Positions 13,796 through 57,172 of a stretch of DNA of 62,707 bases are shown piece by piece. The stretch lies in contig NIVC01003017.1 in assembly GCA_002269645.1 (NCBI GenBank), positions 1 through 62,707 of the forward strand. The letters are read 5' to 3'. The stretch comes from Macrostomum lignano (lineage: Eukaryota). How positions within the stretch are numbered: position 1 is the stretch's first letter; the number at the start of each line of letters is the position of its first letter. A model generated the notes under the pieces. It made no database searches, was not told the DNA's origin, and worked only from the letters and a program-made list of their open reading frames with translations. A program made the translations under genes and the position numbers.

Positions 13796-13867
13796 CTATT
13801 ATCTGAACTGAACTGAATCATAGGCAGGATGAAAGAATATATAGGTTTGAGTGACATATTAGAAGAG

Positions 13868-17595: not shown

Positions 17596-20500
17596 GTGAT
17601 CGATTAGAGAAAAAATGGCTGGACCGATTTTGTTCAAACTTGCACTGTTCGATCAGAAATTTTCCCGTGACTGTACATGCATCGCGGCTAAGAAATTGCT
17701 CGATGCTAAAGGCATTAAATATTCGAAAAACATGCTTTTTTGCAAAGGTCAAGCAAACTTTTCGACTTGAAATGCATTGTAAGAATGCTAGAGAAAAAAC
17801 TGACTGGTTGAATTCTGGTTCTGAAATAGATTGCATCATCACTGAATTGTAACTCCGACTTGAATTGAAAATGCAGTGTGGAAGCGTAGCACCAGACTTG
17901 ATTTAAATTGCGTAACCATATTGTTAACTGATACTGACTGACTGAGAAACTGATTATGTCATAACTGCTTCGTGTGATTTACTCTATGCTTGGATTTTAA
18001 ACTGTTGAATTATATATATATATAAGTGCAAAATTTGATGTTATCAAAAAGATGAGAACTAGCCTAGAGGTGAACAGACTGAACTGCTAAATGCAGCGAC
18101 GATGGTTCGAATTTTCATAGAGTATAATTTTTTTAATTAAAGCTTTTCAACGTCAGGAAAACTAAAAGACTTTTTAAAAAGAAGCGTCATGTAAAAATCA
18201 TAGTAGCGTCATGTAAAAAATCGTAGAAGCGTCATATAAAAAATTATAGAAGCGTCATATAAAAATCATAGATGCGTCATTTAAAAAATCATAGAAGCAT
18301 CATATAAAAATCATAGATGCGTCATTTAAAAAACCATAGAAGCATCATGTAAACAATCATAGAAGCGTCATTTAAAAAATCATAGAAGCATCATATAAAA
18401 ATCATAGATGCGTCATTTAAAAAATCATAGAAGCATCATGTAAACAATCATAGAAGCGTCATTTAAAAAAATCATAGAAGCGTCATATAAAAATCATAGA
18501 TGCGTCATTTAAAAAATCATGGAAGCGTCATGTAAACAATCATAGAAGCGTCATGTGAAAATCATAGAAGCGTCACGTAAAGAATCATAGAAGCGTCATG
18601 TAAACAATCATAGAAGCGTCATGTAAACAATCATAGAAGCGTCATGTAAAAAATCATAGAAGCGTCATGTAAACAATTATAGAAGCGTCATGTAAAAAAA
18701 TCATAGAAGCGTCATGTAAACAATCATAGAAGCGTCATGTAAACAATCATAGAAGCGTCATGTAAACAATCATAGAAGCGTCATGTAAAAAATCGTAGAA
18801 GCGTCATTTAAAAAATCATAGAAGCGTCATGCAAAAATCATAGATGCGTCATTTAAAAAATCATGGAAGCGTCATGTAAACAATCATAGAAGCGTCATGT
18901 AAAAAATCATAGAAGCGTCATATAAAAATCATAGATGCATCATTTAAAAAAATCATAGAAGCGTCATATAAAAAATCATAGAAGCGTCATGTAAAAATCA
19001 TAGAAGCGTCATGTAAACAACCATAGAAGCGTCATGTAAAAAATCATAGAAGAGTCATGTAAACAATCATAGAAGCGTCATGTAAGCAATCATAGAAGCG
19101 TCATGTAAACAATCATAGAAGCGTCATGTAAACAATCATAGAAGCGTCATGTAAGCAATCATAAAAGCATCATGTAAACAATCATAGAAGCGTCATGTAA
19201 ACAATCACAGAAGCGTCATGAAAAAATCATAGAAGCGTCATGTAAACAATCATAGAAGCGTCATGTAAACAATCATAGAAGCGTCATGTAAAAAAATCAT
19301 AGTAGCGTCATGTAAACAATCATAGAAGCCTCATGTAAAGAATCATAGAAGCGTCATGTAAAAAAATCATAGATGCGTCATTTAAAAAATCATAGAAGCA
19401 TCATGTAAACAATCATAGAAGCGTCATTTAAAAAAATCATAGAAGCGTCATATAAAAATCATAGATGCGTCATTTAAAAAATCATAGAAGCGTCATGTGA
19501 AAATCATAAAAGCGTCACGTAAAGAATCATAGAAGCGTCATGTAAACAATCATAGAAGCGTCATGTAAACAATCATAGAAGCGTCATGTAAACAATCATA
19601 GAAGCGTCATGTAAAAAATCATAGAAGCGTCATGTAAACAATCATATAAGCGTCATGTAAACAATCATAGAAGCGTCATTTAAAAAATCATAGAAGCGTC
19701 ATGTAAACAAACGATGCTTCTATGATTTTTCACATGACGCTTCTATGATTTTTTACATGACGCTTCTATGATTTTTACATTTATGTAATTTATGTAAAAA
19801 ATCATAGAAGCGTCATGTAAAAAATCATAGAAGCATCGTGTAAACAATCATAGAAGCGTCATGTAAAAAATCATAGAAGCGTCATGTAAAAAATCATAGA
19901 AGCGTCATCTAAAACATCATAAAAGCGTCATGTAAAAAATCGTAGAAGCGTCATTTAAAAAATCATAGAAGCGTCATATAAACAATCATAGAAGCGCCAT
20001 GTAAACAATCATAGAAGCGCCATGTAAAAATCATAGAAGCATCGTGTAAACAATCATAGAAGCGTCATGTAAAAAATCGTAAGAGCGTAATATAAAAATC
20101 ATAGAAGCGTCATTTAAAAAATCATAGAAGCGTCATGTAAACAATCATAGAAGCGTCATGTTAAAAATCATAGAAGCGTCATGTAAAAAATCATAGAAGC
20201 GTCATGTAAACAATCATAGAAGCGTCATTTTAAAAATCATAGAAGCGTCATGTTAAAAATCATATAAGCGTCATGTAAACAATCATCGAAGCGTCATCTA
20301 AAAATCATAGAAGCGTCATGTAAAAAATCATAGAATCATCATGAAAAAATCATAGAAGCGTCATTTAAAAACTAATGAAAGTGTCATTTAAAAAATTAAG
20401 AAGCATCATAGTAGAATAAAAGAAGCGTCATGTCAGACATGAAAGGTGTCATGGAAAAATTAAATGCAGCTATAATGCTGTGCTGGGGAGAAAAACTGAG

Positions 20501-21517: not shown

Positions 21518-21869
21518 TCTTAACTAGATTCGATCTCTACTTTGCATTTTTCTTAATTATTCCTTTTTAAGCTAAGCATTGCCATTGGCCAATTCGATCA
21601 ATTCGAAGCTGGAAGCAGACAAAGCTGCATCAGCATTGCCTGGCAGCCGGCAGTCGCAACATGCAGGATCCTACAACATGTTCTAGGCGAGGAGAAGGTG
21701 AAGGGGCAGGTGAGTTTTGCCACTCTGTTAATGTAAAAAATCAATTATTTTCTTACCAATATTTGAAGTGGAAAAATTTTAAACCTTCAACTCGAAATGT
21801 GTAACTAATTCAGTTTTAATTAATACGTAATAACACCCGCCCACCCCGAGTCCGTACACCAACCCTGAC

Positions 21870-22075
21870 TCTGCACACCCCCGTCCTCGACTCTGCACAC
21901 CCCCTCCTCGACTCTGCACACCCCCTCCTCGACTCCGCACACCCCCTCCTCGACTCTGCACATCCCTTCCTCGACTCCGCACACCCCCTCCTCGACTCTG
22001 CACATCCCTTCCTCGACTCCGGACACCCCACCTCGACTCTGGACACCCCACCTCGACTTCGCACACCTCTGCACA
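21870..22075 (+). repeat. 21-bp minisatellite (CCTCGACTCTGCACACCCCCT)n, ~10 copies
   Basis: Direct tandem copies upstream of pPolB. Confidence 0.9.
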
Positions 22076-22173
22076 CCTATATCGATTGTATACATCCAAA
22101 AACACCCTCCTCGATTCTGCATACAGACATAGATTATTATGAATAGCTAATTGAGCTGGATTTATAAGCAATC

Positions 22174-25100
22174 ATGAGATTCTCAGTTTATGTTTCTCGA
22201 TTTTCACTATCTTATCTCTCGATTTTATTTTTAGGGTCTTCATGTGTTATCTCCTTGGTGAACAGTGCCCACGATGATGTACTGCAGATTCATCGCTTCA
22301 CCCCAACAGCTGACATTGATCCATTCGAGTTTCTAGACCTGGTCAAACATGCGGTTCTGCAGTATCTCGAAGTTCGTCTTGACTCCTTTGACAACTGTTC
22401 GCTAAGAGCACAAATTAAGCTAAACGTGCGCATGATTCGGGTGCAGGCAGCAGAAGCAGTCAATGTTGAAAACAAATGGATGAGTACAAATCTTTGTATG
22501 CTGGTTGATGTGCAGGAATTTGATGACTGGTGGAGGCAGCAATTTGCAGAGTTAGAGCAGAGAGTAGACGTGTACAACGCTAATGGCAGTGGATGGGCCA
22601 TTGACAAAATAAATTTCTTCGACCTTTGCTCTGCCCTCGCTGTTCGAACTCCCTACTATTCGGGGCATGCGGCTGGGTTTAGTTTGCCGACTGCGCTTTT
22701 TCAAAAGAAGGCCGTCATTTCTCCTCCTAGCAGCGGTGAAAATTGCTTTGTTTACGCGTGCCTTGCCTTTCTTCACAAAGATCACTGCCGTATTAAGAAG
22801 TCAGCTCAACGAGAATCCTCGTACACCGAATGGCTAGATGAGATTAACATTACGGGACTGAGTCTGCCGATCAATTTGTACGATCTGTCTGCTGTCGAGG
22901 AATTGAATCCAACCCTTTGCTTCACTGTTTTCACCTGGGAGAATGAAGCTGCTGAAGTCCTCCGACAGCCAAGCGCAGCTACCATGAGAGGACGAACAGT
23001 TGTCCTGCTGATGTTTCTTCCACCATCCACGAACGAGAACTCAGCTGGTGGTCATTGGTGTGCTGTCTCGAACATCAACAGATTGCTGAACAGTAAAGCC
23101 CACCTGTACCAGCGAAAGTGGTGTGAGCGATGTCTGCTGTCATTTCACACTAGCAAGGCGTTCGATGAGCACTGTGAAGATGTCTGTGAGCCTGGTGGGA
23201 TTTTTGTTCAGGAAGAACTTCCGGATGAAGATCACAATGTACTTCGGTTTACGGCGTGGGAAAAGACAATCAGCCCACCATTCATTGTGTACGCCGACTT
23301 CGAGGCATTGAATGCACCTCACACAGGGCAGCAGACTGAAGCTGGTTCGAGCACTGTAAAGCTGACAGAGCATGTTGCCGTTGCTGCTGGTTACTTGGTG
23401 GTGCACCGAGCAGGCCTCACAGGGTTATCACCTATAGGAGTCGACAATGATGTTAACATATTTGTGAGTGAAAATCCGAAAAAGTGTGTTTCTGACTTCT
23501 TGCAGTCCCTTGAACAGCTAGCTCGAGAGGTTTATGGCTGGAACACGGAGTTCAGTCATCAGACGGCTATTAGAACGGAGGCTGCAAAGCAACGCTTCCG
23601 CGACGCTATATCGTGTCACTATACTGCGGAAGCGGCTTTGATAGTGAAAGCGGAAAGCACTGGGATCATGATCACCTCAGTGGCGAATTCCGAGGTGCAG
23701 CCTGTGCTCAGTGCAACATGCAGGCTCGTCTAAAAAGGCGCTTTCTTCCTGTGGTTTTCCACAATCTAAAAGGCTATGACCTTCATCTCATTATGTCAAC
23801 GGCTTTGGATTTCATGGATGGATGGAGGATTTCGGTTATTCCACAGAATCCTGAGCAGTTTGTTTCAATGAAAGTTGACTTCAAAATCGATGAGTACGAG
23901 AGGGGAGGAAAGACTAAGCCATTGTTCTTATCTTTACCATTCAATTCATTGATTCTAACCAATTTCTCAACGCCAGCTTGGCTCAGCTGATCAAGAACCT
24001 GCCAGAAGAAGAGTGCACCATCACTAGCCTGCTAAAAAGTAAGTTTCCACTGTTGTCTCCAGAAGTTTTATTCAGAAAATGCACTTTTCCGTACGACTAC
24101 TTAACCAATTCAAATGTCCTTGAGGATACCGAGCTGCCAAGTAAAGAACAATTCTACAACGTTCTGACTAAAAGCCACTGCAGTGATGAGGATTACAGGC
24201 ATGCACAGAAAGCATGGCACGAATTCCAAGTTAAAACGCTGAAAGAGTACATGCTATGCTACCTTGAGCTTGACATTCGGCAGCTCGCCGATGTCTTTGA
24301 AAATAATCGCAAGCTCAGCCTTCGTGATGATGGCCTTGATCCGGTGCATTTCGTTTCAACCCCGGGATTATCTTTTGCTTCAGCACTGAAGTCTCTCAAA
24401 TCCAGAATCGAGCTGATTACGGATTCGCAAATGTATGCAACATTCGAGCGCGGTATTCGCGGTGGCATGTCATTTGTGAACATACACAGAGTGTCAGCCA
24501 ACTCTCCAGATATTAGAAAAAATTTGGAAGCAGCTGACAATCAGACTATCTGCAATGACAATGATGATGATGATGATGACTGTCACGACGAGGGCGCTGA
24601 TCAAGCTGTTCCTACCGAGCTTCTAGCAGTAGATGCTAACAACCTTTACGGTCAAGCTCTTACCATGAACTTACCTGCAAATGGATTTCGCTGGCTTTCC
24701 GAAGATGAGCTACAGCTGTGGACCGAGGATCGTATCCGAGGGCTCAAAATCTCAGATCCAATTGCTTATCTGCTCGATGTCGATCTTCTATATCCAGCAG
24801 AGATACATTCCACCACTGAAGATTTGCCTTTTGCACCAGAAAAAGAAGCACCAAAATTCAAAGAATTTCCTGCCTACATGCAACAGCTTTGGAGGCAGAT
24901 TACTAGAGACAAAGCAGCCTATCGTTCGGCAGAAAAACTTCTGCTCACCTGCCATGACAAGCAGAGTTATGTGCTTCATTCGGCCATCTTGGCATTCTAC
25001 TTGAGCCATGGAATGAAAATCAAACGAATTAATCGAATGATTGAGTACAAACAGGAGCCGATATTTGCTGACTATGTTAACATGAACAGCGTGAAAAGAG

Positions 25101-26014
25101 CTGCTGCGACAAACAGCTTCGAGAAAGACTACTACAAACTAAAAAACAATGCACTCTTCGGAAAAACAATGGAAAACGTGCGTAAGCGACGTGACATTCG
25201 GATTTGCACCAACACTGCAAAAGCAAAGGTGCTGGCTTCAAAACCATCCATTAAGAACTTTATCATAATTACCGACTCACTGAGCATAATTGAATTCCAG
25301 AAGACTAAGGTCAAGCTTGATCGTCCGATTTTTATTGGCCAGTGTGTTCTTGACTATTCGAAGCTAATCATGTACGAGTTATTCTACGACAAATTGAAGC
25401 CTTGGCTTGAGCAAGAGGGTGCCCGTGTTCGGCTCTGTGGTGGAGACACCGACTCGCTCTTTCTTTGCATTCAGAATATGGATGTGCAGTCGGAAGTTCT
25501 TCCACTGCTAAAAGCAAAGAAACTCCTTGACACTTCCAACTATTCACCTGAGCACCCGCTGTTCTCAAATGAATTGAAAGCTCGCCTCGGTTGCATCAAG
25601 GACGAAGGAGCTGGAGCTCGCTATCTCGAATGGTTGCTTTTGAGACCAAAGCTGTATTCCTTTCTCGCTAGCACTGCAGCTGCTGAAAAGAAAAAAGCCA
25701 AAGGCATTCAAGGATGTGTCGTCAAGAAGGAGATTGCGCATAGTGATTACTTGAGAGTCTTCAATGATCTGAGTAGCATGTCCGTCATCATCCACAGGAT
25801 CGCTAGCATCCAACACAGACTATTCACGCTGCAGCAGCGAAAGTGTGCCTTAAGCATTTGGGAGGACAAGCGCGCTTGGCTTGCACCGAACTACAGTCTC
25901 CCGTTTGGCCATTTTCAACTTCTTCATCCGGAGTCGTCGCAGCTGCAACAGCACGTGAATGCTACAGCCTCCCGAAAGCGGCGCCGGGAAGAAGATCACG
26001 AATTTAATAAGTGA
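22174..26014 (+). CDS. Protein-primed family B DNA polymerase (pPolB), split by two frameshifts (~23618, ~23935)
   Basis: N-terminal GSGW motif; ExoI IVYADFEAL; EndoVII-like DHDHLSGEFRGAACAQCN; FHNLKGYD; FIDSNQFLNASLAQL (restored across the shift); polymerase motifs DANNLYG, KLKNNALFGK and GDTDSL. Confidence 0.95.
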
Positions 26015-26743
26015 CTGAGTATAGCTTTTTATCACACGGCCTCTACACATTTTATTCTGAATATTTAGTCTTTGGTTTCTTCAAACATATATTCGCCTTT
26101 ATCTGTTTAAATTATATGCTGTCTCAATTTTGCTATCTCAGATAGAAGAAGTTGAAGCAATTTGCCTCCCCTGTTTCACCGTAATTTTAGTGTCTTTTTG
26201 AACTTTTTGTCTGAAGTCTTAATGCTAGCTATTAATTTATCAGTAATTTTATTTCAGTACCTTGTAACTGCACGATTTCTACTCGTAATATTAAATTGCA
26301 AAGTCAGTAAATTTAATGTATTGAAATTTTTATTGCTGAGTTTTATGTTCATTTATTACTTTTTTAACATGATGCTAAAACATTTCTTCGCATTGCTTTT
26401 GTTGAAATTTCTTGCCTATACTAGTAATTTTGCGGTCCAGTTACATGTATGAGTGTCAGTCGAGTTTGATTAATTAATTTCTTCATTCACGTGTATCAAT
26501 CTAAGCAATTTCGCTTTTGGCAGAACCTTTTTGGAATGGGTTCTATGCCCTCTTTCTGTTTTTGTGAGGGGAGAGATCTGATTACGCGTTTTAGCTCCCA
26601 TTTTTCAATTATTCTATGCTCATTTCACCTTTAATTTTTAAGTTAAAACTTATTTTTTAAAATAAAAATAAATAATTTAAAGATGCCGTTTTCCGTAATG
26701 AATTTACGCAAACATTCAAGAACAAACGGAACACACTTTTTGT

Positions 26744-27853
26744 TTATTTTTGATAGGTGATAAACTGGCTGATTAAACTATGCAACGTAGAAATGTCGAA
26801 GCGCAACATGCTCATAGATTTTGCTCCACTAAGAACAAAAGAACCAGTATGAAATAACAGGCATTTACAATAACGTAATGTAGAAATTAGAGCAGAGAAC
26901 GACTCGGGCTCATACTCAGCGTAAGACAGTATGCCAGAGGCAGCAAGATTTGCGAGGGACAAAGCATTGCAGAAGTTAAATTTACCATGAGCAGTAATAG
27001 TTTTAATCCGAACACAAATGGCTTGAGGAGGCAGCAGTTGAGCTGGCACTCTCCGATGCAGCATAGCCACGAAGCGACGGGCAGCCCTTTTGGCGTCTGC
27101 GTGGGTCTTGGCACCGCAGATGCTCAGTTGCCCAGTAGGGTAGAGTAGCAGAGTCACTCTGGGACTCCGCATCCGCTTGATGAGCACCCGGGGCCAGACG
27201 GGCCGGTAGATCACATGAGCCATGCTGAGAGCCAGTTCCCGTAGAGGTAGCTGAGCGCCCTGCCACCATCCAGCCTCAGATCTACTCCGCCAACCAGATT
27301 GGTCACTCTTAGGGCTGTAGCTGGTGGGCTCATTTCGATCGTCAACTTCTTCACCAAATCTGCTTCTGCCAACTTTACTGCTCGTGTGCCACGGACACTG
27401 CTCGCTTCTTAAGTTGATGCAGAACTTTGGCTTAAGCCAACTGTAGTGCAGCAACGAATTTCTCACTGCACAGCCAGTATCTGAATCTTCAGTCGAGGGT
27501 GCTCCCAAATCTTCTAGGTTATAAACCTGTCTACCAAGCAGCTCAGTCAGGAAAATAGACTTCCTTTCCCCATTTGTCCAGATCGGACCACTGGCAATCC
27601 TCAGAATGTCTTCCGCCAGTTTCATGTACGGACGGGTTCCATCATTCCACTTAAACTGGTGCAGACTCTTTGATAGCTGTCTGTAGCAAACTCGCATGTC
27701 AGGTGAGACTCTCTCCCATGGATACGGAGGTGCGTACACATGGTGAGCAATGCGGTAGCTTCCCGCTCTGACTTGAACAACTGCCAACTCCTTCACAACA
27801 AATTTTTTGCTTGTGCTGTTGCACGGGAATCCTTGGAAGTCAATGTAGTTCAT
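26744..27853 (-). CDS. 369-aa ORF: N-terminal RNase H-fold/DEDD-like domain of the type seen in Mavericks, plus C-terminal TATA-binding protein (TBP)-like domain
   Basis: N-terminus [28 protein letters not shown]. C-terminal residues ~200-365: [45 protein letters not shown] and [14 protein letters not shown] align to TBP [45 protein letters not shown] and LIFVSGKVVLTGAK. Confidence 0.85.
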   Translation of the reverse strand: [369 protein letters not shown]

Positions 27854-27881
27854 GATGCAGCTTTCCCTCGAAATTTCGGAG

Positions 27882-28573
27882 TCAGTCCACCTTCTTATAT
27901 ACTTTTCTTCCGGGCAGTTTCAGCCAGGCTGTGTTGCTCCCGTACCCCTTGACTAGACTCGCCTGTTCTTTCTCCAGTTCACTCCCTCTGCTGGTTGCCA
28001 TTTTCTTTTTAACTGATTTACCAACAGCAGAAGGCGGAACATTAAGCTTTTTCTGCTGCAGCAAATCGATGAACTCGTTCCACCCAACTGGTTCACGCTC
28101 ACATGACAAATCCCTCACTGCGTGCTGAATCAAGTCCAGTATGTTTGAGGAAGGGATTGAAGTGCCTGTGATTTCCACCTCCCGTTTTCACAAACTCGAA
28201 TCAACTCTGGATTGGTGGACAGGATCGTCCATAGACTGCGAGCCCTGGTTTTGAATTTCTGTGGCACCGACTTGCTGATCTTCTCTTCCCAGGTGTTCAT
28301 CTGGGGTGTCTCTGTTTTCATCAACTTGGCTTCAGTATTTCGTGATCCTTCTTTTCCAGCGTGCTTGCGCTTGGCCAGCAAACTTTGAATTGCACTTTGA
28401 TACATGGCGGTTTTCACATCTTCTGGATAATCCTCGGCATACAAGATATCATCGCATTTCTTCTGAGCCTGCTTCAAGTCAGCGTCAGTGCTAGTCTCAT
28501 TTGGCTTAAAATTCTGCACCAACATCTCATACTCTGTTTTAGGAATCAGAACCATTTCTGAAAATTTGTTCAT
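27882..28573 (-). CDS. Conserved uncharacterised Maverick protein (~230 aa), one frameshift at ~28180
   Basis: EMVLIP..KKCDDIL..K...Y; SVPQKFKTRARSL; after restoring one G: GEVEITGTSIPSSNILDLI..PVGWNEF..L..NVP..VG. This pattern is typical of a recurrent Maverick ORF. Confidence 0.65.
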
Positions 28574-28877
28574 TTTGCTTCTTCTTCTTTACCAGCTTAA
28601 GCAGAATCGGGAGTATTTTAATGAAGCCAGCCTTTAACAAGTCTATCTTTCTTCTCTGCTGAGTAATTTTTCGAATTATCTCTTTTGACTTTGCAAGAAC
28701 AGCTTTTTCATCGATCGAAAACGATAAATTGTTTTGTAAGAGATTATGGCAGGCCTCAACAAGAAAATAACGCACTTCTTTTGGACAATTTTTTATCAAC
28801 AGCCGCTTGAAGCGCACGGTATATTTAGGTGACGCAAGAACCGCAAAAAGACTTGCATGTGAATCAAACACTTCCAT
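28539..28877 (-). CDS. Small basic conserved Maverick protein (112 aa)
   Basis: E.CHNLL.NN..F....K..L...K..IRKI....GFIKILPILL pattern, located next to the ATPase as in other Mavericks. Confidence 0.6.
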   Translation of the reverse strand: MEVFDSHASLFAVLASPKYTVRFKRLLIKNCPKEVRYFLVEACHNLLQNNLSFSIDEKAVLAKSKEIIRKITQQRRKIDLLKAGFIKILPILLKLVKKKKQNEQIFRNGSDS

Positions 28878-28919
28878 AGCGATTAAAACAATAGCCGATA
28901 AAAAACAAGCTTCACTTTC

Positions 28920-29601
28920 TTAAGCAAATACAAGATGGGGTCGCTGGTTGGGCAGAATTCTGGCCCGCACTCGCAGCTCATCGGGAGTTGATGGGTGAAA
29001 GTCTAGGAACAGGTAGGCTCCCCTGTTCTGCGCGGTCACGTGCTTGAACACTGACAGCAGAAAGCCGGGCTTCTCTGTAAAGCACTGCCTGCCCAGTGCT
29101 GCAATCTGCAGCTGGTCTCGGGGGTTTTTCAAGATAGCTAAATACATTACATTCAAGCTCATTGTTCGCGACTCTTTTCCCTTGAAAAATATATTCTGAG
29201 TCAGCATCGCCAAAAAGCACGGCAAGTGATGTGCGATTCCCCGTGAAAAAATTTCGCATTGAAGCAGAATTTGAAGTTTCCTCTTTTAAGTCATCGAAAA
29301 CAACCAGGTCATTGGGCCTAAGTGCTGCCTCGATGTTGGTGGGAAATCCCTGGCGCAGCTGCACACCTAGGCTGCTCAGTTCTGCATGGCCTGCCTGTGA
29401 GATCCCATAGTACCACAGAACTCTGCCAGGCTTCACATCAAACATGACGTCTCTGTACTGGATCAGGTGTTTGACAAAGGTTGTTTTTCCTGCATTGGTG
29501 GGCCCGCAGACAATCATGCAGCTTCCCTGCCTGAGGCGGATATCGTAGCAAACTCGCTTTTCTCCCATGTCTAATGCATAAATATTAGAAATCACGGACA
29601 T
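28920..29601 (-). CDS. A32/FtsK-HerA-type DNA packaging ATPase, one frameshift at ~29240
   Basis: Walker A GPTNAGKT and Walker B LVVFDDL, then (other frame) HHL..LTQNIF..SRTMSLN..KNPRD..QI..LGRQ..YLFLDFHP. Confidence 0.92.
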
Positions 29602-30079
29602 CTTTTTCTTAAGTTGGCTTCAAACCTCTGTAAGATTCTATCATTCAAATGATTTTTTTCATTAGAGTGCAAACTCTTTAAAATACCCTCAAATGACCGA
29701 TTGATCAGCAACTTTTGATAAGCAAAATAGATGCAAAACACTCCGCATTTATTAGAGTTAGCACATTGAAATCTGTTTTTATTGCTTCGGAGATAAAAGC
29801 CAGTTGTTTTAATCTCTCGAAACAAATTATAAACCACAGATAAAATTTCAGGTTCCCAGCCGAGGGAGTTGAACAGCTCAATGCAATTTCCTTGCCCAGC
29901 ATAGCACACCACCCAATGACCAAATGAGCCATTGTGCTGTAGTAGGATAAACACAAACTTGTTTTCAAAGGGAATTGATCGATATTTTCTATGTATTTCT
30001 ATGAATGTAAAGTAATGATGAGGAATTTTCGGCAAGACAAAAATTTTCTGGCGAGATGGAGTAGTTGAATTGCTTCCAT
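29592..30079 (-). CDS. Adenain-like cysteine maturation protease, probable frameshift near the N-terminus
   Basis: GHWV, ELFNSLG (usually FDS) and Q..NSNKCGVFCIYF. The likely ATG at 30079 lies just after the MCP stop at 30085. Confidence 0.85.
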
Positions 30080-30084
30080 GCCAG

Positions 30085-31360
30085 TTAAGAGGAATAGTCC
30101 AGCAAAAGCTCCCGGTGCTTGGTGACCTCAATCAGCGAGTCATACAGGCACAGAGCGATCAGGGACACCGTTTCGTCCAGAGCCTGTCGGAAGCGAATCT
30201 CCAGCCGCAGGTTGCCCTCCTTCTGTCCGTACCACAGAGCCGCTCCCTCGGGTGTGAGATCGAATGCTGGTAGAGCTGGTAGAAGAGCTGGTAGGGAATC
30301 CACGGAACCGAGTTTGTGTGGCTTGCAGATTGACAGCTTTTCAGGTAGTGCAAGTATTCTCTTACAAAGGAATTGTTTTCAGGTGTGAAGGCGCCGTGGC
30401 ACACGGTTTCTCCACCTTTCTTTAGAGCCAATCGGCTAAGGTTGAAGCTCTGGAACTGGAACGGGCTCGCGTGATGATGACCGTTGAATGCACGGTGGCT
30501 CACGAAGGCCAGCATGATGAACTTCGGCAATTTTCCATGAGTGAATCCTTCAATGTTTTTAGATTGAATGCCCTGGGGTAGGATGAAGTTCTGCATTTCA
30601 GTTCGCTCGATGGGATACAGTGCATTTTGGTTTGTCAGCCCCTGCTCGTGGGCCAGGCTGATGTGGGGCACCACTTTGACTCGGCGAAGATGCAAAATGC
30701 AGTGAGAGATTTCCATGCGGTATGCCGCGTTGTTTGCATTCGGGCTTCTGATGGCAAAGGCCCCATCGCTGGGCACCAGTTTGATGTGCAAGTGCAGATT
30801 GTTTAGCAGAAACATTGGGCACTGGAAAACATCGCTGAAGAGCGGCCCCGCATACTCCATCCATCGGGATTCCCTGTGGCTCTCCGTGTGCTCTTCAGCT
30901 GCCGAGTCCGGCTCCAGGAAGCCAGCAGGGTAAAGTTTTAGTTGCTGGGCATCGATGAGCTCATTAGTGCTTTGAAGTACGCATGGTAGGGATAGAGCTG
31001 GTCTCCACCAGACACCACTCGCTGGTTAATGCTCACAATTACATCTGAGAAGGCTGTAGACAGAACAAAGTTTTCTGGGTGCACATCACTGTCTCTGCGC
31101 TCGGTGATGATGCCATCTCCATCTCGAACATCCTCCCTCAGCAAACCCCCATCCAGTCTCACAAGGCGGCAGCGAATATAAAGAAAAGAATTCAGCAGAT
31201 CTGTGTATTCATCGGCAGATTGGTGACAGTCAAATTCAATGGGGGAGTTTGCAGTAATGGAATTTACTGGGTGAATATCAACATAAGTAGCTTTTTCAAT
31301 GCAGGTTTGTAGAACGGGCGTCTTAAATAAATCAAGTCTGGGATTGAATCCGTAAGCCAT
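30085..31360 (-). CDS. Double jelly-roll major capsid protein, split over three ORFs (31360-30938, 30860-30159, 30303-30085)
   Basis: LDLF..P..QT.IE....IHPVNS....PIEF......YTDL; L.SDVF......NNL.L.IKL; ALYPIERTE; LPKFI..AFVS..AFNG...SPF.F; C-terminal GNLRLEIRF..AL..TVS. Confidence 0.9.
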
Positions 31361-31362
31361 GT

Positions 31363-31752
31363 CTATGACAGAGAGTCGAGCACGCGTTTCACAGTTTTCT
31401 TGCTGACTTTTCGCTTTCGCTTTCCTCCGCCTGCTGCATTCTTCTTTGCTTTCGTCTTCCTATTCTTAAGCTTTTTCCTACTAGCCTTGCTTGGATTTCT
31501 TTCATTGCACCTCTTATTGGTGCGATCTCTACCAGTTGCCTTTCGGGTGTACTTCTTCTTCTTCAATCGTTTCGGACTTGCTTCAGTATTTCTTTTGCGC
31601 CTGACATTGCTATGCGTTGAGAATGATGATGTAGCCGCTGGAGGAGGCTGGTATGTCATGATCCCCGGAAAGCTCCCACAGCCATAGAGTGCAGGCTTTT
31701 CGTGTCCTGTCCTCACCCCCGAATATTGCTGGATCAGCTGCTGGTAGTTCAT
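31363..31752 (-). CDS. Arg/Lys-rich putative core (DNA-condensing) protein
   Basis: The likely start MNYQQ at 31752 overlaps the penton stop (ATGA). N-terminal Y..Y.G/LYGCGS glycine motifs and a very basic C-terminus. Lies directly upstream of MCP. Confidence 0.55.
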   Translation of the reverse strand: MNYQQLIQQYSGVRTGHEKPALYGCGSFPGIMTYQPPPAATSSFSTHSNVRRKRNTEASPKRLKKKKYTRKATGRDRTNKRCNERNPSKASRKKLKNRKTKAKKNAAGGGKRKRKVSKKTVKRVLDSLS

Positions 31753-32575
31753 TGAATGCGTTTCTCCCGAATCTGAACTGTGAGCAGAACAGGGCTGAGT
31801 GTCTGGGCAATCAGTGGGCAACCATAGATGTCACGCAGCTGAACTCGAATGCTGTGAAGAAGACTGATTCGTTGAATCGGCAAGAATATTGTTTTCTTAA
31901 ATATTTTTGTTTGATAGTTGCCCCATTCAATGCCGGCTTTCATTCCAACTGTTCTCAACAGGGAGCCCAAGTTGCAATTAGTTGACTCAACGATACTGCA
32001 GTGCACATTGATTAAGCTGGTGCGCGGGCAGCCAATGCAGTGCTCGGACACGCGGCTCCCTGGCTGGATTTTCACAGCCTGGTTTCCAAATCCCAGCCAA
32101 TGCAGAATTTTGCTGGATGGAAGAAACAGCTCTGCTCTCGCAGTGTTGTTGTGCACCACAGTTCGTGAGTTGCGGATTTCGAACTTCATACCGAATTCCC
32201 TGTTGCCACTACGCCCCATCAGGCCGGACTCATCAGCCTCCATCTCAGACTCCCTGTCACTCATTGCATCAAAGAATAGCGAATCAGAGTTGGCCAGCAG
32301 CTCATTCAGGCGCTCCACCAGCTCCTCCACTCTAGCAAAGCGTCCGGGTTGAAGAACCAGGGCCTCATGCTCTCTTCCATCTGAGACAGTGAAGCAGTAA
32401 GGCTCGTCAACATTGAACCATGCAGCAGGCAGATGGATTTCAGCCAGACCTGCCTCATAGCCACATTTCGATCCAAGTAAATAGGTGAAGGCAGGTAAAA
32501 ATTAAAGTCACTAGGAGTACCTTCAGCATGCTCACTGTTAATCAAAATAGTTCGCATTATAATGATAAACTTCAT
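31749..32575 (-). CDS. Single jelly-roll minor capsid (penton) protein, one frameshift at ~32320
   Basis: N-terminal INS....GTPSDF...LPSPIYL; C-terminal INVHCSIV......LLRTV.......F....F.PI......IRVQLRDIYG.PL......LTVQI. Confidence 0.75.
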
Positions 32576-32594
32576 GATGAGGGATGTGCCAAAG

Positions 32595-33665
32595 CTAAAC
32601 CTTTCTTAAGTCTTTTTCATCCACCCAGCCTGTCCAGTCGTAGCCGGCCCACTTCACCAGATAGCGAATCTTTCCCTTCCGCTTCTCCGTTTCCAGGATC
32701 TTCTCAATCACATACAGGCGCTGTGAGTCCGGCACCGCCTGCAGCTCATGCTCATGAAAGAGACCCCGGATCTCCTCACCCTTCATGTCCCTAATCTTGT
32801 ACATGTACGGATAGTGCTTCGGTGCCCTACATACTACAGTGTACACCTCCTCACTCCAGTTGGCCTTGTATCCTTTGCGGAATAGCCTGGGTGCATTGGA
32901 AATTCTCACTGACTGCTTTTCACTGAATTTGGGCTTCTTTGGCTTCTTCACAGTCTCAATGGCTCTTCCATTGTAAAGGTTCATCCAGACCTCAGTCTCA
33001 TTCTCTTTGCATACGCTAGTCGGTGCCATTTTGATGCTTCTGTGGTAAGTGCTGTTGTACGACTTGACCAGCTTTGGCAACACATCAACCCAATGCAAAG
33101 TGCTCTTGTGGGTGAAATATCGCCACATTTTGTTTTTCAAAGTTCTATTCCACCTCTCTATGATGGCTGCTTTTTGCTCACTATTAGTGGGGAATGCCAA
33201 AATTCCCTTGCTTATACAGAACTCCCGAAAATTGGTATTGATGAACTCTTTTCCTTGATCCGTGCGGACTGTGCGTGGCTGGCGCTTTGAGCACCTCAGG
33301 ATACTCTCGAATGCGAACTTGACTTCCGCAGCTGATTTGTTTTTTAGAGGCCTGGCCCAACCAGATTTAGAGAGGACATCTATACATGTGAGAATATACT
33401 TATAGCCGTTATTGTATTTTGCAAATGGTATCATCTCAACCAGGTCAAGTTCCCACTGATCATCAATAGCCCTAACAATGATTGGTGCCATAGGATAGCG
33501 TCTCCTAGCTTGCTTGTGCAGTGTGTACACAGGCTGCTCAGTCAGCCATTGTCCGATGCTCTTTTTAGATTCACGATTATCCTGTGTTTTCTTGAGCTCG
33601 TGCAGAAGCTTTGAGACACCCGAGAAACTGGCAGGCTGAGCAGGGTTGTAGTAGATCTTTTCCAT
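32595..33665 (-). CDS. Retroviral-like (rve) integrase with C-terminal chromodomain-like tail, intact
   Basis: YYNP..PASFSG; QWELDLVEM; CIDVLSK; RTDQGKEF; IIERWNRTLK; KGYKANWSEE; IEKIL......RYLVKWAGY. Confidence 0.95.
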   Translation of the reverse strand: MEKIYYNPAQPASFSGVSKLLHELKKTQDNRESKKSIGQWLTEQPVYTLHKQARRRYPMAPIIVRAIDDQWELDLVEMIPFAKYNNGYKYILTCIDVLSKSGWARPLKNKSAAEVKFAFESILRCSKRQPRTVRTDQGKEFINTNFREFCISKGILAFPTNSEQKAAIIERWNRTLKNKMWRYFTHKSTLHWVDVLPKLVKSYNSTYHRSIKMAPTSVCKENETEVWMNLYNGRAIETVKKPKKPKFSEKQSVRISNAPRLFRKGYKANWSEEVYTVVCRAPKHYPYMYKIRDMKGEEIRGLFHEHELQAVPDSQRLYVIEKILETEKRKGKIRYLVKWAGYDWTGWVDEKDLRKV

Positions 33666-33724
33666 TATCAAAATCAAGCTGAATGAAAGCCTGCAAAACA
33701 AATTTTTTAAAGTTCTTCTTTTCG

Positions 33725-33857
33725 CGGCTTGCTCATTGAGCCACTGTTCAATGCTCTTTCAATTTTTATGCCCACCCTCTTCTCCAACTTGATGCAGCAG
33801 CTTTGAGCAAACTGAAAAACTAGCTGGTTGGCCAGGAGCAAAGTAATTTTTTTCCAT
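33725..33857 (-). pseudogene. Degenerate second copy of the integrase N-terminus
   Basis: MEKNYFAPGQPASFSVCSKLLHQV...SIEQWLNEQ versus MEKIYYNPAQPASFSGVSKLLHEL...SIGQWLTEQ. Confidence 0.7.
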
Positions 33858-34118
33858 TTTCTCAAGAAACAAAAGTCAACAGTCTAATTTTCTCTTAAGC
33901 ACAAGAACAAAGGAAAACAATTTTTTTTATGAAAAGAAGCTTTTATATTTTTCAGCCGATAAGAAACAATAAGTTGCATGATTTTCTCAAATGGAGAGAC
34001 TTAATTAAGTTTTCTGGATAAATGAGCAATGTTAATTATAGAAATTGTTAAATGAGCCAATTTAAGTCTGTCACCAATCATCAAAGTTCTTCAAAGCACT
34101 TCTTATTATTCTTCTTCT

Positions 34119-34861
34119 TCACTCCTCATCCTCATTGAGGCGCAGTCTTATGGCATTCTGCCTGCGCAGCGGATATGGCTGCTTGCGCTTCCTGACGTTC
34201 TCGACCGCAGCTGCTTCAGCCCGGAAGCGATACCAGACTGGGTCCTGCAGCAAATCCGAATCCTGCTTTGGGATAAAGCCAGCTGCAGCACTTGTCACCG
34301 GTAGAGGCGTTGATGTGACCACTTCATCGTCGATGCGCAGAGTGCTTGATTGGACGCCCTCATCCTCAGTCTTCACAAGCCGCACGATGTCGTCCTTGTT
34401 GCTGTTGTCATCATCATCACCGTTGCTCTCGCTCGAAGATCCCGACTCCAGCTCATACACATCAGAAATTTGGCGTGGGGCAGACAGCTGCTCGTCGATC
34501 CATGCAGCCTGCTCCCACAGTTTTCGCCACAGAGCTGGTGCCAAAGCCACAGTGTTTCGCTTCAAAAATTCTTCGCAACAATCTTCTGGAAGCCGTCTTA
34601 GCCAGATGATGCCGTTCTTAACCTCAAAAAACTTATCAAAACCGAGTTTGATGATCCTCTGTTGCCCGCCTAGGGCCGCCTTCACGAGAGTTCGCTTCAG
34701 TCTTTCAACTTCTCCCATTGTCGGATGTTGAGGTTAAATCCGGGAACGCCAGGTTTTAAACTTGCTGTGCTGCCATGTCGATAAAATTTCCGAATCGCAA
34801 TAAACTGTACTCCTTCATACTCTTGTACTTGAAGTTTGTAGCCTTCTCCAATATCGACCAT
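34119..34861 (-). CDS. Tandem PC4/Sub1 (p15 coactivator, ssDNA-binding) domain protein (~247 aa if one missing A at ~34702 is restored)
   Basis: Unlisted 54-aa ORF 34861-34697 (MVDIGEGYKLQVQEYEGVQFIAIRKFYRHGSTASLKPGVPGFNLNIRQWEKLKD) aligns to the PC4 C-terminal domain. ORF 34718-34119 holds a second, more diverged PC4 repeat (IKLGFDKFFEV..IIWLRR..TVALAPALWRKLWEQAAWIDEQL) and an acidic/basic tail. Confidence 0.85.
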
Positions 34862-35497
34862 TATTAATTAGTTATTACGATGTAACGGAGCGAGAATTTC
34901 AATTTTTTTTATTATTTGTGAAAACAAATTTTCTGGTTTATATACAAATATCTCCTATGTAAACACATGCGGCTATGTATTCACATTACCCCTATGGGAC
35001 ACAGGTGCCTATGTACTCTCATTAGGAGTCTAAGGAATTCCCATGGCTTTGCCTGCGGCAGAGTTGAGCTATGCAAACACATAGGCGCCCTTCTGATCCG
35101 GACCCACGGAATTTCCGTGGCTTTCCCTGCGGCAGAGTTGTGTTATCCTCTACTACTCATATAAAAAGCTTTATTCACTAGGCTTTAATTTCTATTCATG
35201 TATTATACACATTGCTTCAAATAGCAAAAAGGCCACTAAAACCATAGACACATGCATTCAAAGCGGCCTTTTAGAATTCTGCCAATATTTGCAAGTGTAA
35301 CGTCCTGTGTTCTTAAGTAGTCCTTGGTGTGCACGTCTTCCGATTGGACAGTGTTCACTGTGTGCTCGCTAGGTTTGACAGTGTCACGAGATAAGGTATC
35401 GGCGACCACTTTCTTGGCTCCCGGGATGTGAATGATGTCGATCACATATTCTGAGATAGTGGCCAACTGGCGCTGCTGCCGATCGGATAGGCGCTCC

Positions 35498-38400
35498 CAG
35501 GCAAGCCTCTTTGTTCGCTTCGCTCACCAGGAAGCGACACTCACATGGCCCCTCCCCACCTCCTCTACAAGTTTAGTCTCGTTTTGGGAACTTGGGAAGC
35601 AAAAAATTTTTGTCCTTCGTTTACTGTACACTGAATTACTCATATATTTTCTATGCTATGCCTATATCTTCTCGTGCAGGATATCATTTAGGCAGCAAAA
35701 AACAACTGATATCAACTCACTCTCTGAGCAATTCTCTGATTTTCTAAACTCTAATTTTTTTATCGAACATTTATTTGCATAATACATCGATTGAGGATAC
35801 AAGTGCTGTGTTCCAGCTTGTGTTACTAATTTGCCTCGGTATAAGAAGGACCCGACTGTTTCCATCCACAAGAATATTCTATTGAGAATCTGGATCTGCT
35901 GAACAAGTGGATCGCTACAATTCCTCTACAATGGACTGAGGCCGAGCTGTGTAAGCTGCGGTCCGACTTAAGTCACAACTATCGGGTTTGCTCTCTGCAT
36001 TTTCCAGGTAAGTTTTTTGTGACTGTCTCTGCGGATTCCAACCCAAATCACAAAAGGCCGGCATCTGACGATCCATCGACTGCTACTTCTAAGCTGAAAA
36101 ACCGGCGTCTGACAGATGATGCTGTGCCGTGCATCTTCCCGAATGTTGCACCCTACTTGAGCAAGGCCGTCCAGGAAGAGAGGCAAACGGTTTGTACATC
36201 GGCTGAGAGCCGTCGAGAGAACGACATTCAGCGTTGCGAGGTAGATCTCTGAAGGTGATCACCTCAGAGATCACCTTGAATCTTTTCAAGGTGATCTCTG
36301 AATCGAGGTTAACCTTTTTTACAACTAGAATGTCCGGTGCCGGCAACTTGGAGATCGCCACATCGCTGAATGTTGGCCAAGAGCTGCTGTTTGAGGTCAC
36401 AGTTGGTGGTGATAAGCAAGCCTTTTTTGCTGGAGATCTGGTAGCTGATGGCAGTCTTAAACCTTTGCCCAACTTGAAAACATCCTAGCTAGGCTAAAAA
36501 ATGTCCGTTTGGAAGATTGCCGGCATGGTTATGAGGAGCACCTCTTACTAGCTCAGGAGGCAGTCACGAAAGCTGTCACCGACTTGTCAGCTAAGATTGA
36601 AGTCAAGAGTGATCAAGAGCTGGATACATCCATTGAGGAGGCTGCTTTTGCTAAACTGAATTTTCTTGTCGAGCAGCTAAGCTTTTCGAGTTTGAAGAAG
36701 GGGAAGCTCCAGCGAGCTACTTGCTTTTTCATACTTGTTGCAGCGCCACAGCCCATCAGCGTACAATTTCACTCGGAAATCCAACATAGTCAGCCTCCCA
36801 AGTGTTAGGCATCTGCAGAGGCTTTCTTCCGGATTGAGCAATGACCCTGACATCAAGGCTACCGAAGATTATCTTAAGCTAAAAGTTTACAGCCTGCCTG
36901 AGTCTGAGAGGGTAGTGCTTCTTGCAATCGACGAAATTTATTCGTCGAAGCGAATGGAATTCAGTGGAGGCAAGATATTTGGCACTGACTCAGAAACCGA
37001 TGAGCTCGCCAAAACTGTGTGCGCTTTTTTGATCAAGTCGCTGCATGGAGACTTCCAGGAAGCAATTTCTCTTATTCCAAAAAGTAGGCTTAGTGCTCTG
37101 GACTTGCAAAATCACCTCTCTGACTGCCTTGCTCTGCTTGATCGGGTTCACCTGAATCCAGTGGTGTGCATTGTTGACAACAATGCAGTGAATAGGAGCC
37201 TCTTTCAAGGTCTTCTATGCAAAGGCAAGCTGCAATCATCAAGTCCAAATCCGGTGTCTGGCGAGCCGCTGTTCCTTCTCTTCGACCCTGTACACAACTT
37301 TAAGAACATCTTGAACAATTGGATTTCGAGCCAGGTGTTCCGATTTCCGGACTTCACCGATCCCCAAAAAATCCAAACAGCAGATTTTCGCGATTTGCAC
37401 AAACTTCATGAGCAAGAACTTGGGCAACCAGCTCGGATCGCCTTTCAACTGAACACAATGTCCTTGAATCCAACGAACCTGGAGAAGACTAATGTTCAGC
37501 ACGCAGCCAGCATCTTCAGCGAGTCTACTGTAGAAGCAGCAAAGTTCTACAATTTTTCCTCTGGCTTGGTAGCTTTCCTAGCGCTCATTCTTAACATGTG
37601 GACGATCTGGAATGTCAAGACCACTAGGAAAGCGAAGGAAAAGCGGCTTCCCGACGCCGCTCCGCTGGTGCCAAACGATCACCGCCTCGACAAGCTGCGC
37701 CAGTTTGCCGATTTCTTCCAACGTTGGGAGGATTCGAAGTTGCCCGGCTTGACTGCTCCCACTTTCCTTGCCGTTAAGTCCTGCTGTCTCACTCTTGCTG
37801 ATCTTTCCGAGCACCTTTTCTCTAGGTATTTATTTCCCTCTGTTTTGACAGGTAGGATAGTCAGTGACTGGATCGAGTGGCGCTTTGGTCGCTACCGCCA
37901 GTTTCACGGAGGCAACTATTTTGTTTCTGTCCGGCAGATCCTTCAAGCCGAGAAGAAAATTCGCGTTTCCAGCCTGCTTCAGTTTCATGGCCTTGGACTG
38001 AAAGATTTAAAAATTCTTGACCAGGCGAGTTCGTCCGAGTTGTTTAATCCACTCTTATCCGTGAAGCTTCCAGGTCTCCAGCATCTTGACGCCGCTCTTA
38101 CATCTAGTGACCGAAACATTGTTCCTATCTTGGTGGCTACGTGTCTAAAGCTCTATGCGGCCAGCTGAAGTGCACTGACTGCAAGAATCTTCTACTTACT
38201 AACGATTACTTGGAGTTTATTGCGGAAGAGGACTGTGCTGACGGCTTTGCCCTGATTCAAATGCGTGACCGAGGCGGTCTTAAGTGCCCCAGCACTTTGC
38301 GGATCTTAATTCCTGCAGTCCGGATTTATCTAAAGAATTTTGTCAATGAGACAAACGATGAGAAGGCGAAGAACTGCAGAAGGTGACGAATCGTAAGGCG

Positions 38401-57170: not shown

Positions 57171-57172
57171 TA

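What the first reader, a model, noticed from the sequence alone, without database searches (positions are those of the whole stretch)
26744..27333. Maverick/Polinton virus encodes a TATA-binding protein (TBP) fold
Seen: residues ~200-365 of ORF 27853-26744 reproduce both TBP pseudo-repeats. [17 protein letters not shown] ~ [40 protein letters not shown] ~ [23 protein letters not shown]; AARRF ~ [15 protein letters not shown] ~ [24 protein letters not shown] ~ LIFVSGKVVLTGAK. Of the four DNA-intercalating Phe, the two C-repeat ones are kept, one N-repeat Phe is Tyr and one is lost. The missing first strand is present one frame away: ATG at 27333 gives MSPPATALRVTNLVGGVDL ~ PQLQNIVSTVNL, with the DNA-contacting Asn. 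Established: TBP homologs occur in large NCLDVs, but TBP is not in the core Maverick gene set (pPolB, INT, ATPase, PRO, MCP, mCP). I do not recall a TBP in a Maverick, though I cannot check the literature. Inference: a divergent virus-encoded TBP could redirect host Pol II to viral promoters with altered specificity, or act as a dominant-negative TBP/TFIIB decoy.
Basis: partly seen in the sequence, partly recalled or inferred. Interest (0 to 1): 0.92.

Follow-up and report, generated by a model that had tools for sequence, protein, structure and literature searches.

The report
Maverick virus carries its own TBP
A virus-like jumping element in a flatworm genome carries its own altered copy of TBP, the protein that starts transcription, and many of its particle-building genes sit behind an altered TATA box that this protein may read.

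Summary
Confirmed, with one correction. The TBP fold is real: Pfam TBP E 2e-23; a sister copy's natural 196-aa ORF folds at pLDDT 90 and matches solved TBPs (Z 19.7). The 369-aa ORF is not the normal gene. It is a fusion made by a frame break near 27260 in this copy; 13 of the 14 closest sisters keep a separate TBP gene. The gene is a stable part of two Maverick families (TBPs about 33% identical), is under purifying selection, is only 26-29% identical to host TBP, and so is no recent retrocopy. It keeps both TFIIB-side glutamates but has a remodelled DNA face. A box, YWTAAGA, precedes most integrase, packaging and putative capsid genes in both families. Best reading: a viral TBP that switches on late genes, working like herpesvirus ORF24. 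Binding and expression are not shown. TBP is only a figure label for related viruses of non-animal hosts in the one paper found. This scan noted Polinton TBPs in two other genomes before, one with a promoter box; that note gave me the lead.

The parts
21518..35163 (.). Maverick/Polinton copy (family A); left end with about 2.7 kb and the left TIR is absent
   Evidence: 97-99% identical to sister copies over this span; sisters run on to a second TIR
26744..27333 (-). TBP gene (196 codons in sisters); frame broken near 27260 in this copy
   Evidence: fold of a sister's natural ORF
27003..27853 (-). Upstream conserved Maverick ORF (about 173-aa domain; DEDD-type nuclease look is recalled, Maelstrom-like lead at 0.88). 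In sisters its frame stays open over the first TBP repeat (283 aa)
26743..26748 (-). Poly(A)-type hexamer overlapping the TBP stop codon
   Evidence: a like hexamer lies within 40 nt of the stop in 7 of 8 copies examined
27407..27413 (-). YWTAAGA box, 80 nt before the TBP ATG
27893..27899 (-). Box 46 nt before the upstream ORF; overlaps a canonical TATAWAW
28918..28924 (-). Box 47 nt before the 112-aa ORF
29607..29613 (-). Box about 50 nt before the packaging ATPase start of sisters
31321..31327 (-). Box match inside the putative major capsid gene; not assigned to a gene start
31464..31470 (-). Box 110 nt before the putative major capsid gene
31895..31901 (-). Box 149 nt before the basic 129-aa ORF
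32604..32610 (-). Box 35 nt before the putative minor capsid gene, inside the last integrase codons
33893..33899 (-). Box 234 nt before the integrase (41-42 nt in subfamilies L029 and L043)
34146..34152 (-). Box match in the PC4-like gene; not assigned to a gene start
22174..26014 (+). [quoted passage not shown]
   Evidence: sister protein is 44-54% identical to polymerases that hit PF03175
27882..28573 (-). 230-aa ORF of unknown function, broken near 28180
28539..28877 (-). 112-aa ORF of unknown function
28920..29562 (-). Packaging ATPase gene, broken in this copy
   Evidence: P-loop hits, weak Pox_A32 hit E 0.011 in a sister
29592..30079 (-). Cysteine protease gene, broken near 30000
   Evidence: sister hits Peptidase_C5 at E 0.003
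30080..31360 (-). Putative major capsid gene (about 427 aa in sisters), broken in this copy; label inferred from size, place and beta-rich prediction
   Evidence: fold not confirmed
31363..31752 (-). Basic 129-aa ORF (putative core protein; inferred)
31749..32575 (-). Putative minor capsid gene, broken near 32480; label inferred from place and size
32595..33665 (-). Retrovirus-type integrase with chromodomain
   Evidence: PF00665 E 9e-13, PF00385 E 9e-5
34119..34861 (-). PC4-like gene, broken near 34700
   Evidence: sister hits PF02229 at E 5e-7; family B homologue at E 3e-5
35003..35163 (.). Right terminal inverted repeat
   Evidence: 155-160-bp inverted pair at 98% identity in sisters

Best explanation
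The element encodes a working, minimal TBP (two repeats, no long N-terminal tail) that acts as its own late-gene switch. SHOWN: the TBP fold; a gene kept under purifying selection in two Maverick families; a remodelled DNA-binding face with the acidic stirrup kept; a shared YWTAAGA box before most integrase, packaging and putative capsid genes. INFERRED: host TBP and Pol II first transcribe genes behind ordinary TATA boxes (in family B this includes the TBP gene itself). The viral TBP then binds the variant box, which reads as a TATA box with C/T, A/T at positions 1-2 and G at position 6, and recruits host TFIIB and Pol II to the structural cassette. In family A the TBP gene has the variant box too, which would add positive feedback. 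The window's own copy is a broken member of this family.
For: Fold. Copies: 100 rows span at least 160 of 171 residues at 74-100% identity, 97 of them without a stop; 27 family B rows span at least 140 of 186 residues; 36 of 41 fetched loci have an uninterrupted ORF (loci were picked from the better hits). Selection: dN/dS 0.16-0.43 in 36 of 36 pairs among nine family A representatives. Same gene neighbour in both families. Residues in 15 Maverick-type TBPs (numbering checked against Table 1 of PMC12529657): N69, V71, L114, E186, E188, F190, F207 in 15 of 15; F116Y, T124C, N159T in 15 of 15; V122 to S/T, V161 to T/S and P191 to S/T/N in 15 of 15. P191 favours T at TATA position 1 (PMC12529657); the box has C or T there. 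Box within 160 nt of the start in 6 of 10 genes (L021), 8 of 11 (L029) and 5 of 8 (family B, L032); binomial P 0.004, 7e-6, 0.001. Its core is the top 5-mer in a search over all 5-mers: 20 of 29 upstream windows against 11 of 114 others, P 3e-10. In the window's element all 10 matches are on the cassette strand and none in the polymerase half. Family B has a canonical TATA box 53 nt before TBP, in the codons where family A has the variant box (aligned by eye). Three partial insect-type Maverick contigs without a TBP hit show canonical TATA boxes before ATPase and neighbours (read by eye). A PC4-like gene is present in both families.
Against: No binding, start-site or expression data. The box was chosen after looking at upstream regions, and L021 and L029 are related, so the P values are optimistic. 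A-rich words are enriched there too (P about 2e-5), and a composition-matched control is missing. The box is common in host DNA (43 in the window against 41 expected). In family B the total count is not above chance (8 against 4.7; 23 of 200 shuffles). It is absent before the protease and 230-aa genes, and its distance to the ATG runs from 19 to 149 nt. Some variants overlap canonical TATA boxes that host TBP could read. F99 and the basic residue at 120 are lost in 15 of 15, and that at 211 in family A, which could mean weak DNA binding. The TBP-less control is about one lineage of partial contigs from another host group. Capsid labels are unconfirmed.
Confidence: 0.6

Rival explanations
1. 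The viral TBP is a general helper. It binds ordinary and variant TATA boxes alike and raises element transcription where host TBP is scarce or locked in TFIID; the box is just a TATA variant that host TBP also reads.
For: Box variants overlap canonical TATAWAW at two promoters. The acidic stirrup is kept. Host TBP tolerates single TATA variants, including G at position 6 (titles of 1qn3-1qn7; degree of tolerance recalled).
Against: Six DNA-face positions are changed in every Maverick-type TBP of two families about 33% identical. The commonest box form departs from TATAAAA at three positions.
Confidence: 0.15
2. It is a decoy or dominant-negative TBP that binds host TFIIB, NC2, Mot1 or TAF1 and dampens host transcription; the box is read by another factor.
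For: E186 and E188 kept in 15 of 15, while F99, N159 and K120 are lost.
Against: The new DNA-face residues are themselves invariant, and N69, V71, L114, F190 and F207 are kept. A face that no longer binds DNA should drift. The basic helix-2 residues are not kept in family B.
Confidence: 0.12
3. The box is a late-start signal for the RNA polymerase of a helper virus, as virophage promoters are thought to be, and the TBP serves another end. The core resembles the baculovirus late motif (recalled).
For: The core fits that recalled motif; promoter motifs of virophages and PLVs are a published theme (search listing only).
Against: The box sits in register with a canonical TATA box at the homologous place in family B. 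No helper virus was looked for or seen.
Confidence: 0.06
4. It is a recently captured host TBP retrocopy or a non-functional passenger.
For: The window's own copy is broken. The donor cannot be fixed from the trees, where branches are long.
Against: 26-29% identity to the host TBP core, no closer than to a plant TBP; outside the canonical TBP clade (support 95); dN/dS below 0.45 in 36 of 36 pairs; present in two families and in unnamed datasets.
Confidence: 0.03

Closest known systems
Cellular TBP family (Pfam PF00352; host TBP P0161 and TRF2-like P0162)
   Same: Two-repeat saddle (TM about 0.8, Z up to 19.7, rmsd about 2 A over 175-180 residues); N69, V71, F190, F207, E186, E188 kept.
   Different: 26-29% identity to host TBP, lower scores to the TRF2-like protein; no long N-terminal tail; F99 lost, F116Y, V122S/T, T124C, N159T, V161T/S, P191S/T/N.
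Beta/gamma-herpesvirus late transcription (KSHV ORF24 TBP mimic, TATTWAA box; PMC12529657, passages and section 16 read)
   Same: A virus-encoded TBP-fold protein with a more polar DNA face, paired with a variant TATA box before late genes (pairing here is inferred).
   Different: ORF24 is a multi-domain mimic, keeps all four Phe and P191, lacks the acidic TFIIB-contact residues, binds Pol II itself and needs five partner proteins. The Maverick protein is a bare TBP with clear sequence homology that keeps the acidic residues; no such partners were found.
Mavericks/Polintons/adintoviruses (Starrett et al., PMC8502044 and 10.1101/697771)
   Same: TIRs, 6-bp target duplication, polymerase, integrase, ATPase, protease.
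   Different: TBP appears there only as a figure-legend label in the section on viruses of non-animal hosts (figures not visible). The section on other adintovirus genes does not list it.
TBP-like proteins of giant viruses (NCLDV)
   Same: Virus-encoded TBP fold (BFVD hits, best E 1.5e-10).
   Different: Structural matches are weaker than to cellular TBP (TM at most 0.73, rmsd 3.8 A or more, mostly 8-16% identity); many of these viruses have their own RNA polymerase (recalled), and no such gene was seen here.

Membership tests
TBP family (PF00352) | Two TBP repeats above the Pfam cut-off | tested here: met
   82-86 bits against 22.9, two stretches
TBP family (PF00352) | Saddle fold like solved TBPs | tested here: met
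   pLDDT 90; TM 0.81; Z 19.7, rmsd 2.3 over 179 residues, next unrelated Z 8.5
Canonical eukaryotic TBP (TBP/TRF1/TRF3) | Four intercalating Phe and two Asn | tested here: not met
   two Phe and one Asn kept
Canonical eukaryotic TBP (TBP/TRF1/TRF3) | Groups with canonical TBPs in a tree | tested here: not met
   outside the clade of 16 rows labelled canonical by similarity (support 95); long branches
Canonical eukaryotic TBP (TBP/TRF1/TRF3) | Acidic stirrup that contacts TFIIB | tested here: met
   E186 and E188 in 15 of 15; binding itself untested
TRF2/TLF | Closer to TRF2 than to TBP | tested here: not met
   25-45 bits to P0162 against 37-64 to P0161; apart in the tree
Maverick/Polinton | Terminal inverted repeats | tested here: met
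   155-160 bp in two sisters; window keeps the right one only
Maverick/Polinton | 6-bp target-site duplication | tested here: met
   6 of 6 letters in the C211 copy, if its right end is read 4 nt longer; 5 of 6 in C1113 (by eye)
Maverick/Polinton | Protein-primed family B polymerase | tested here: met
   PF03175 in L032 and L026; the window-type polymerase has no Pfam hit to it but is 44-54% identical to those
Maverick/Polinton | Retrovirus-type integrase | tested here: met
   PF00665
Maverick/Polinton | Packaging ATPase and adenovirus-type protease | tested here: inconclusive
   below-cut-off hits only: Pox_A32 E 0.011, Peptidase_C5 E 0.003
Maverick/Polinton | Double jelly-roll major capsid protein | tested here: inconclusive
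   model pLDDT 39, beta-rich; no PDB or profile match
Herpesvirus late pre-initiation complex | Multi-domain TBP mimic plus partner activators | tested here: not met
   the protein is 187-199 aa, TBP core only; no such families among 25 proteins scanned in Pfam
Herpesvirus late pre-initiation complex | Viral TBP binds a variant TATA box before late genes (works-like criterion) | not testable with these tools
   correlation only

The most novel reading that the evidence does not exclude
A widespread lineage of animal Mavericks runs a one-protein late-transcription switch: a long-captured TBP whose DNA face changed together with a private TATA variant and which uses host TFIIB and Pol II. It would be the smallest known viral TBP/promoter pair, arisen apart from herpesviruses, and the short metagenomic TBPs that share N159T (12 of 13) would be its relatives in other hosts.
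Probability: 0.45. Interest if true: 0.88.

Novelty: new variant of a known kind. Interest (0 to 1): 0.74.

Why it matters
How Mavericks time their genes is open: PMC11161782 has no hit for 'transcription' or 'promoter', and ten searches found no paper on a TBP or late promoter in animal Mavericks. A dedicated TBP plus a private box would mean that these elements have a staged, virus-like programme rather than passive transposon expression. It names a switch that can be knocked down and a box that can be mapped in a laboratory flatworm with over a hundred copies. It also offers natural TBP variants with a changed DNA face, a direct test of the TBP-TATA recognition code.

Tried and rejected
Expression: the run search listed 20 holders from 7 studies, none on record as RNA: 'no RNA holder listed', no evidence either way. 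No reads could be laid, so expression and whether the window's breaks are real or assembly errors stay open. Context of outside homologues: viral contigs gave no relative for family A, the capsid, or the short TBP clade; the metagenome scan gave 11 loci; the three best hold cellular-type TBPs (archaeal or eukaryotic look) and three more showed no Maverick genes; five were not examined. A TBP-less Maverick family in this genome as a control: none among 99 scored candidates. Capsid fold: model unusable, profile and PDB searches empty. Sigma-70 scan: nothing above chance, not relevant. Programmed frameshift making a nuclease-TBP fusion: rejected, since the four fused copies break at four different places, each losing part of the first repeat. 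A TBP-TFIIB complex prediction was not run: a pass would rest on likeness to solved structures. The composition-matched control for the box was not completed. Donor of the gene: trees unresolved; group labels were my own, by similarity; 64 of 161 rows were used. Literature searches. The supplement of PMC8502044 was held as one file of about 4 million characters, possibly cut, with no hit; figures and bioRxiv supplements could not be seen and may name more TBP-bearing viruses.

Full report
Observation. Residues 201 onward of ORF 27853-26744 match Pfam TBP in two stretches (E 2.7e-23) and solved TBPs at E about 1e-12. The first strand, with the Asn equal to yeast N69, starts at the ATG at 27333 in another frame.

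The ORF is a fusion particular to this copy. The genome gave 151 matches from 150 scored candidates of 219; 100 rows span at least 160 of 171 residues at 74-100% identity, 97 of them without a stop. All 14 closest sisters differ from the window by a gap at 27250-27260. Thirteen of them carry a separate 196-aa TBP ORF. The upstream ORF stays open over the first TBP repeat in another frame, so breaks there can fuse the two; three other fetched copies are fused, each at a different place. The window copy has about a dozen private indels and breaks in most genes. Whether these are decay or assembly errors is open.

The element. Window 21518-35163 is 97-99% identical to sister copies that run about 2.7 kb further to a second TIR. 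Sisters have 155-160-bp TIRs, and one has a 6-bp target duplication. Integrase is a firm Pfam hit; polymerase is firm through relatives; ATPase and protease hits are below cut-off; a PC4-like gene opens the cassette. The capsid labels are inferred from size and place; the fold test failed. Near-identical proteins are named Macrostomum lignano by their sources, so the host is most likely that flatworm.

A second family. Weak hits led to family B, with another gene order, a putative capsid 44% identical to family A, and a TBP 33-40% identical right after the same upstream gene. Twenty-seven rows span at least 140 of 186 residues. Relatives of both families exist in unnamed datasets (P0002-P0004, P0007, P0016, P0163-P0165); their context is unknown.

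The protein. A sister's natural ORF (P0008) folds at pLDDT 90 into the TBP saddle: TM 0.81, Z 19.7, rmsd 2.3 over 179 residues, next unrelated Z 8.5. Giant-virus TBPs match less well. Of 41 fetched loci, picked from the better hits, 36 have an uninterrupted ORF; dN/dS is 0.16-0.43 in 36 of 36 pairs among nine family A representatives, and 0.58 in the one close family B pair. Identity to the host TBP core is 26-29% for the genome's copies. In trees the Maverick-type TBPs form one group (0.97; 90) outside the canonical clade (95), on long branches; the donor is unresolved. The retrocopy reading is rejected.

Residues (11 family A and 4 family B type proteins; yeast numbers checked against Table 1 of PMC12529657). 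Kept in 15 of 15: N69, V71, L114, E186, E188, F190, F207. Changed in 15 of 15: F99 (Pro beside an invariant Trp in A, Leu in B), F116Y, K120Q/H, V122S/T, T124C, N159T, V161T/S, P191S/T/N. Of 133 other TBP-family rows, 129 have Asn at 159. The changes are themselves conserved, which fits a new specificity better than loss of binding; this is inference.

The box. YWTAAGA, mostly followed by A, lies within 160 nt of the start in 6 of 10 genes of L021, 8 of 11 of L029 and 5 of 8 of family B (binomial P 0.004, 7e-6, 0.001). Its core ranks first among all 5-mers: 20 of 29 upstream windows against 11 of 114 (P 3e-10). In the window's element all 10 matches are on the cassette strand and none in the polymerase half. 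The motif differs from the one in that note, and unlike it family A has the box before TBP itself (74-80 nt). Family B has a canonical TATA box 53 nt before TBP, in the codons where family A has the variant (by eye); this sets the register. Three partial insect-type Maverick contigs with no TBP hit show canonical TATA boxes before ATPase and neighbours (by eye; about one lineage).

Against the box. It was chosen after inspection; two of the three test sets are related; A-rich words are enriched too; a composition-matched control is missing; the whole window holds no more copies than chance (43 against 41); family B's total is not above chance; protease and 230-aa genes lack it; distances vary from 19 to 149 nt. 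No RNA evidence was obtained.

Mechanism. Most likely (0.6): host TBP starts genes behind ordinary TATA boxes, the viral TBP accumulates, binds the variant box and recruits host TFIIB and Pol II to the structural cassette. Fold, selection, residue pattern and box position are shown; binding, TFIIB use and timing are inferred. Rivals: general helper (0.15), decoy (0.12), helper-virus signal (0.06), passenger (0.03). That the gene is a functional, element-borne TBP of some kind I put above 0.9.

What is known. It works like the KSHV ORF24/TATTWAA system (PMC12529657; passages and section 16 read) but is not a member: ORF24 is a multi-domain mimic that lacks the acidic TFIIB-contact residues and needs partners. 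In Starrett et al. TBP is a figure-legend label in the section on viruses of non-animal hosts (10.1101/697771: passages and section 8; PMC8502044: passages, section 3.2 and one supplement file); I could not see which viruses. Term searches in PMC11161782 and PMC4642659 gave no TATA or TBP hit; PMC4028283 had no TATA hit; PMC12220804 had only an author name in its references. Ten library searches found no paper on a TBP or late promoter in animal Mavericks; subscription journals are mostly missing from that library. This scan has two earlier, unchecked notes on Polinton TBPs in other genomes.

Verdict. A real, conserved, virus-encoded TBP with a candidate private promoter box; the copy in the window is broken. 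New variant of a known kind; interest 0.74.

Noticed in passing
window 27003-27333; L007, L064-L072: The upstream ORF stays open in another frame across the whole first TBP repeat: 99 codons past the first strand in family A, 121 in family B, same offset. Stop-making third letters are avoided (0 of 17 chances in L007, 0 of 12 in L071; shuffle P 0.004 and 0.03, with the end point chosen after the fact). It may encode a real Ser/Gly/Arg-rich tail or block TBP translation from the longer message.
   Followed up: partly
TBP gene across family A (L007, L016, L064-L070): The first repeat is 76-100% identical between subfamilies, the second only 48-76% with near-saturated silent sites. The C100 copy has neighbours 94-97% identical to the window type but a polymerase only 45% identical: the cassette seems to swap polymerase modules at or near the TBP gene.
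   Followed up: partly
window 21518-35163: This copy has about a dozen small indels not seen in at least 3 of 4 sisters, with breaks in most genes: decay or assembly error.
   Followed up: partly
window 34119-34861; L031:8381-9067: A PC4-like gene in both families, at a different place in family B; a second transcription-related gene.
   Followed up: partly
P0125, P0053, P0043, P0090, P0122, P0132, P0033, P0026 and others: Short metagenomic TBPs that share N159T (12 of 13) and lie next to the Maverick TBPs in trees (0.93, only 71); contigs up to 18.8 kb exist but could not be read.
   Followed up: partly
window 18180-20433: A 23-bp satellite of about 99 copies lies left of the element; the same repeat lies near two other Maverick copies (L026, L031).
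   Followed up: no
window about 8100-13800: Broken Helitron (PF14214, Pif1 helicase).
   Followed up: no
window 36954-38168, 39369-39836, 56610-62607: A P-element-like transposase fragment, a reverse transcriptase fragment, and an LTR retrotransposon with a 1278-aa pol ORF.
   Followed up: no
L044, L045: Host TBP and a TRF2-like gene, each at three places in the genome and without introns in the core.
   Followed up: yes
L041:6351-7334: Sisters carry a 327-475-aa ORF near the left TIR that the window lacks; no Pfam hit.
   Followed up: no
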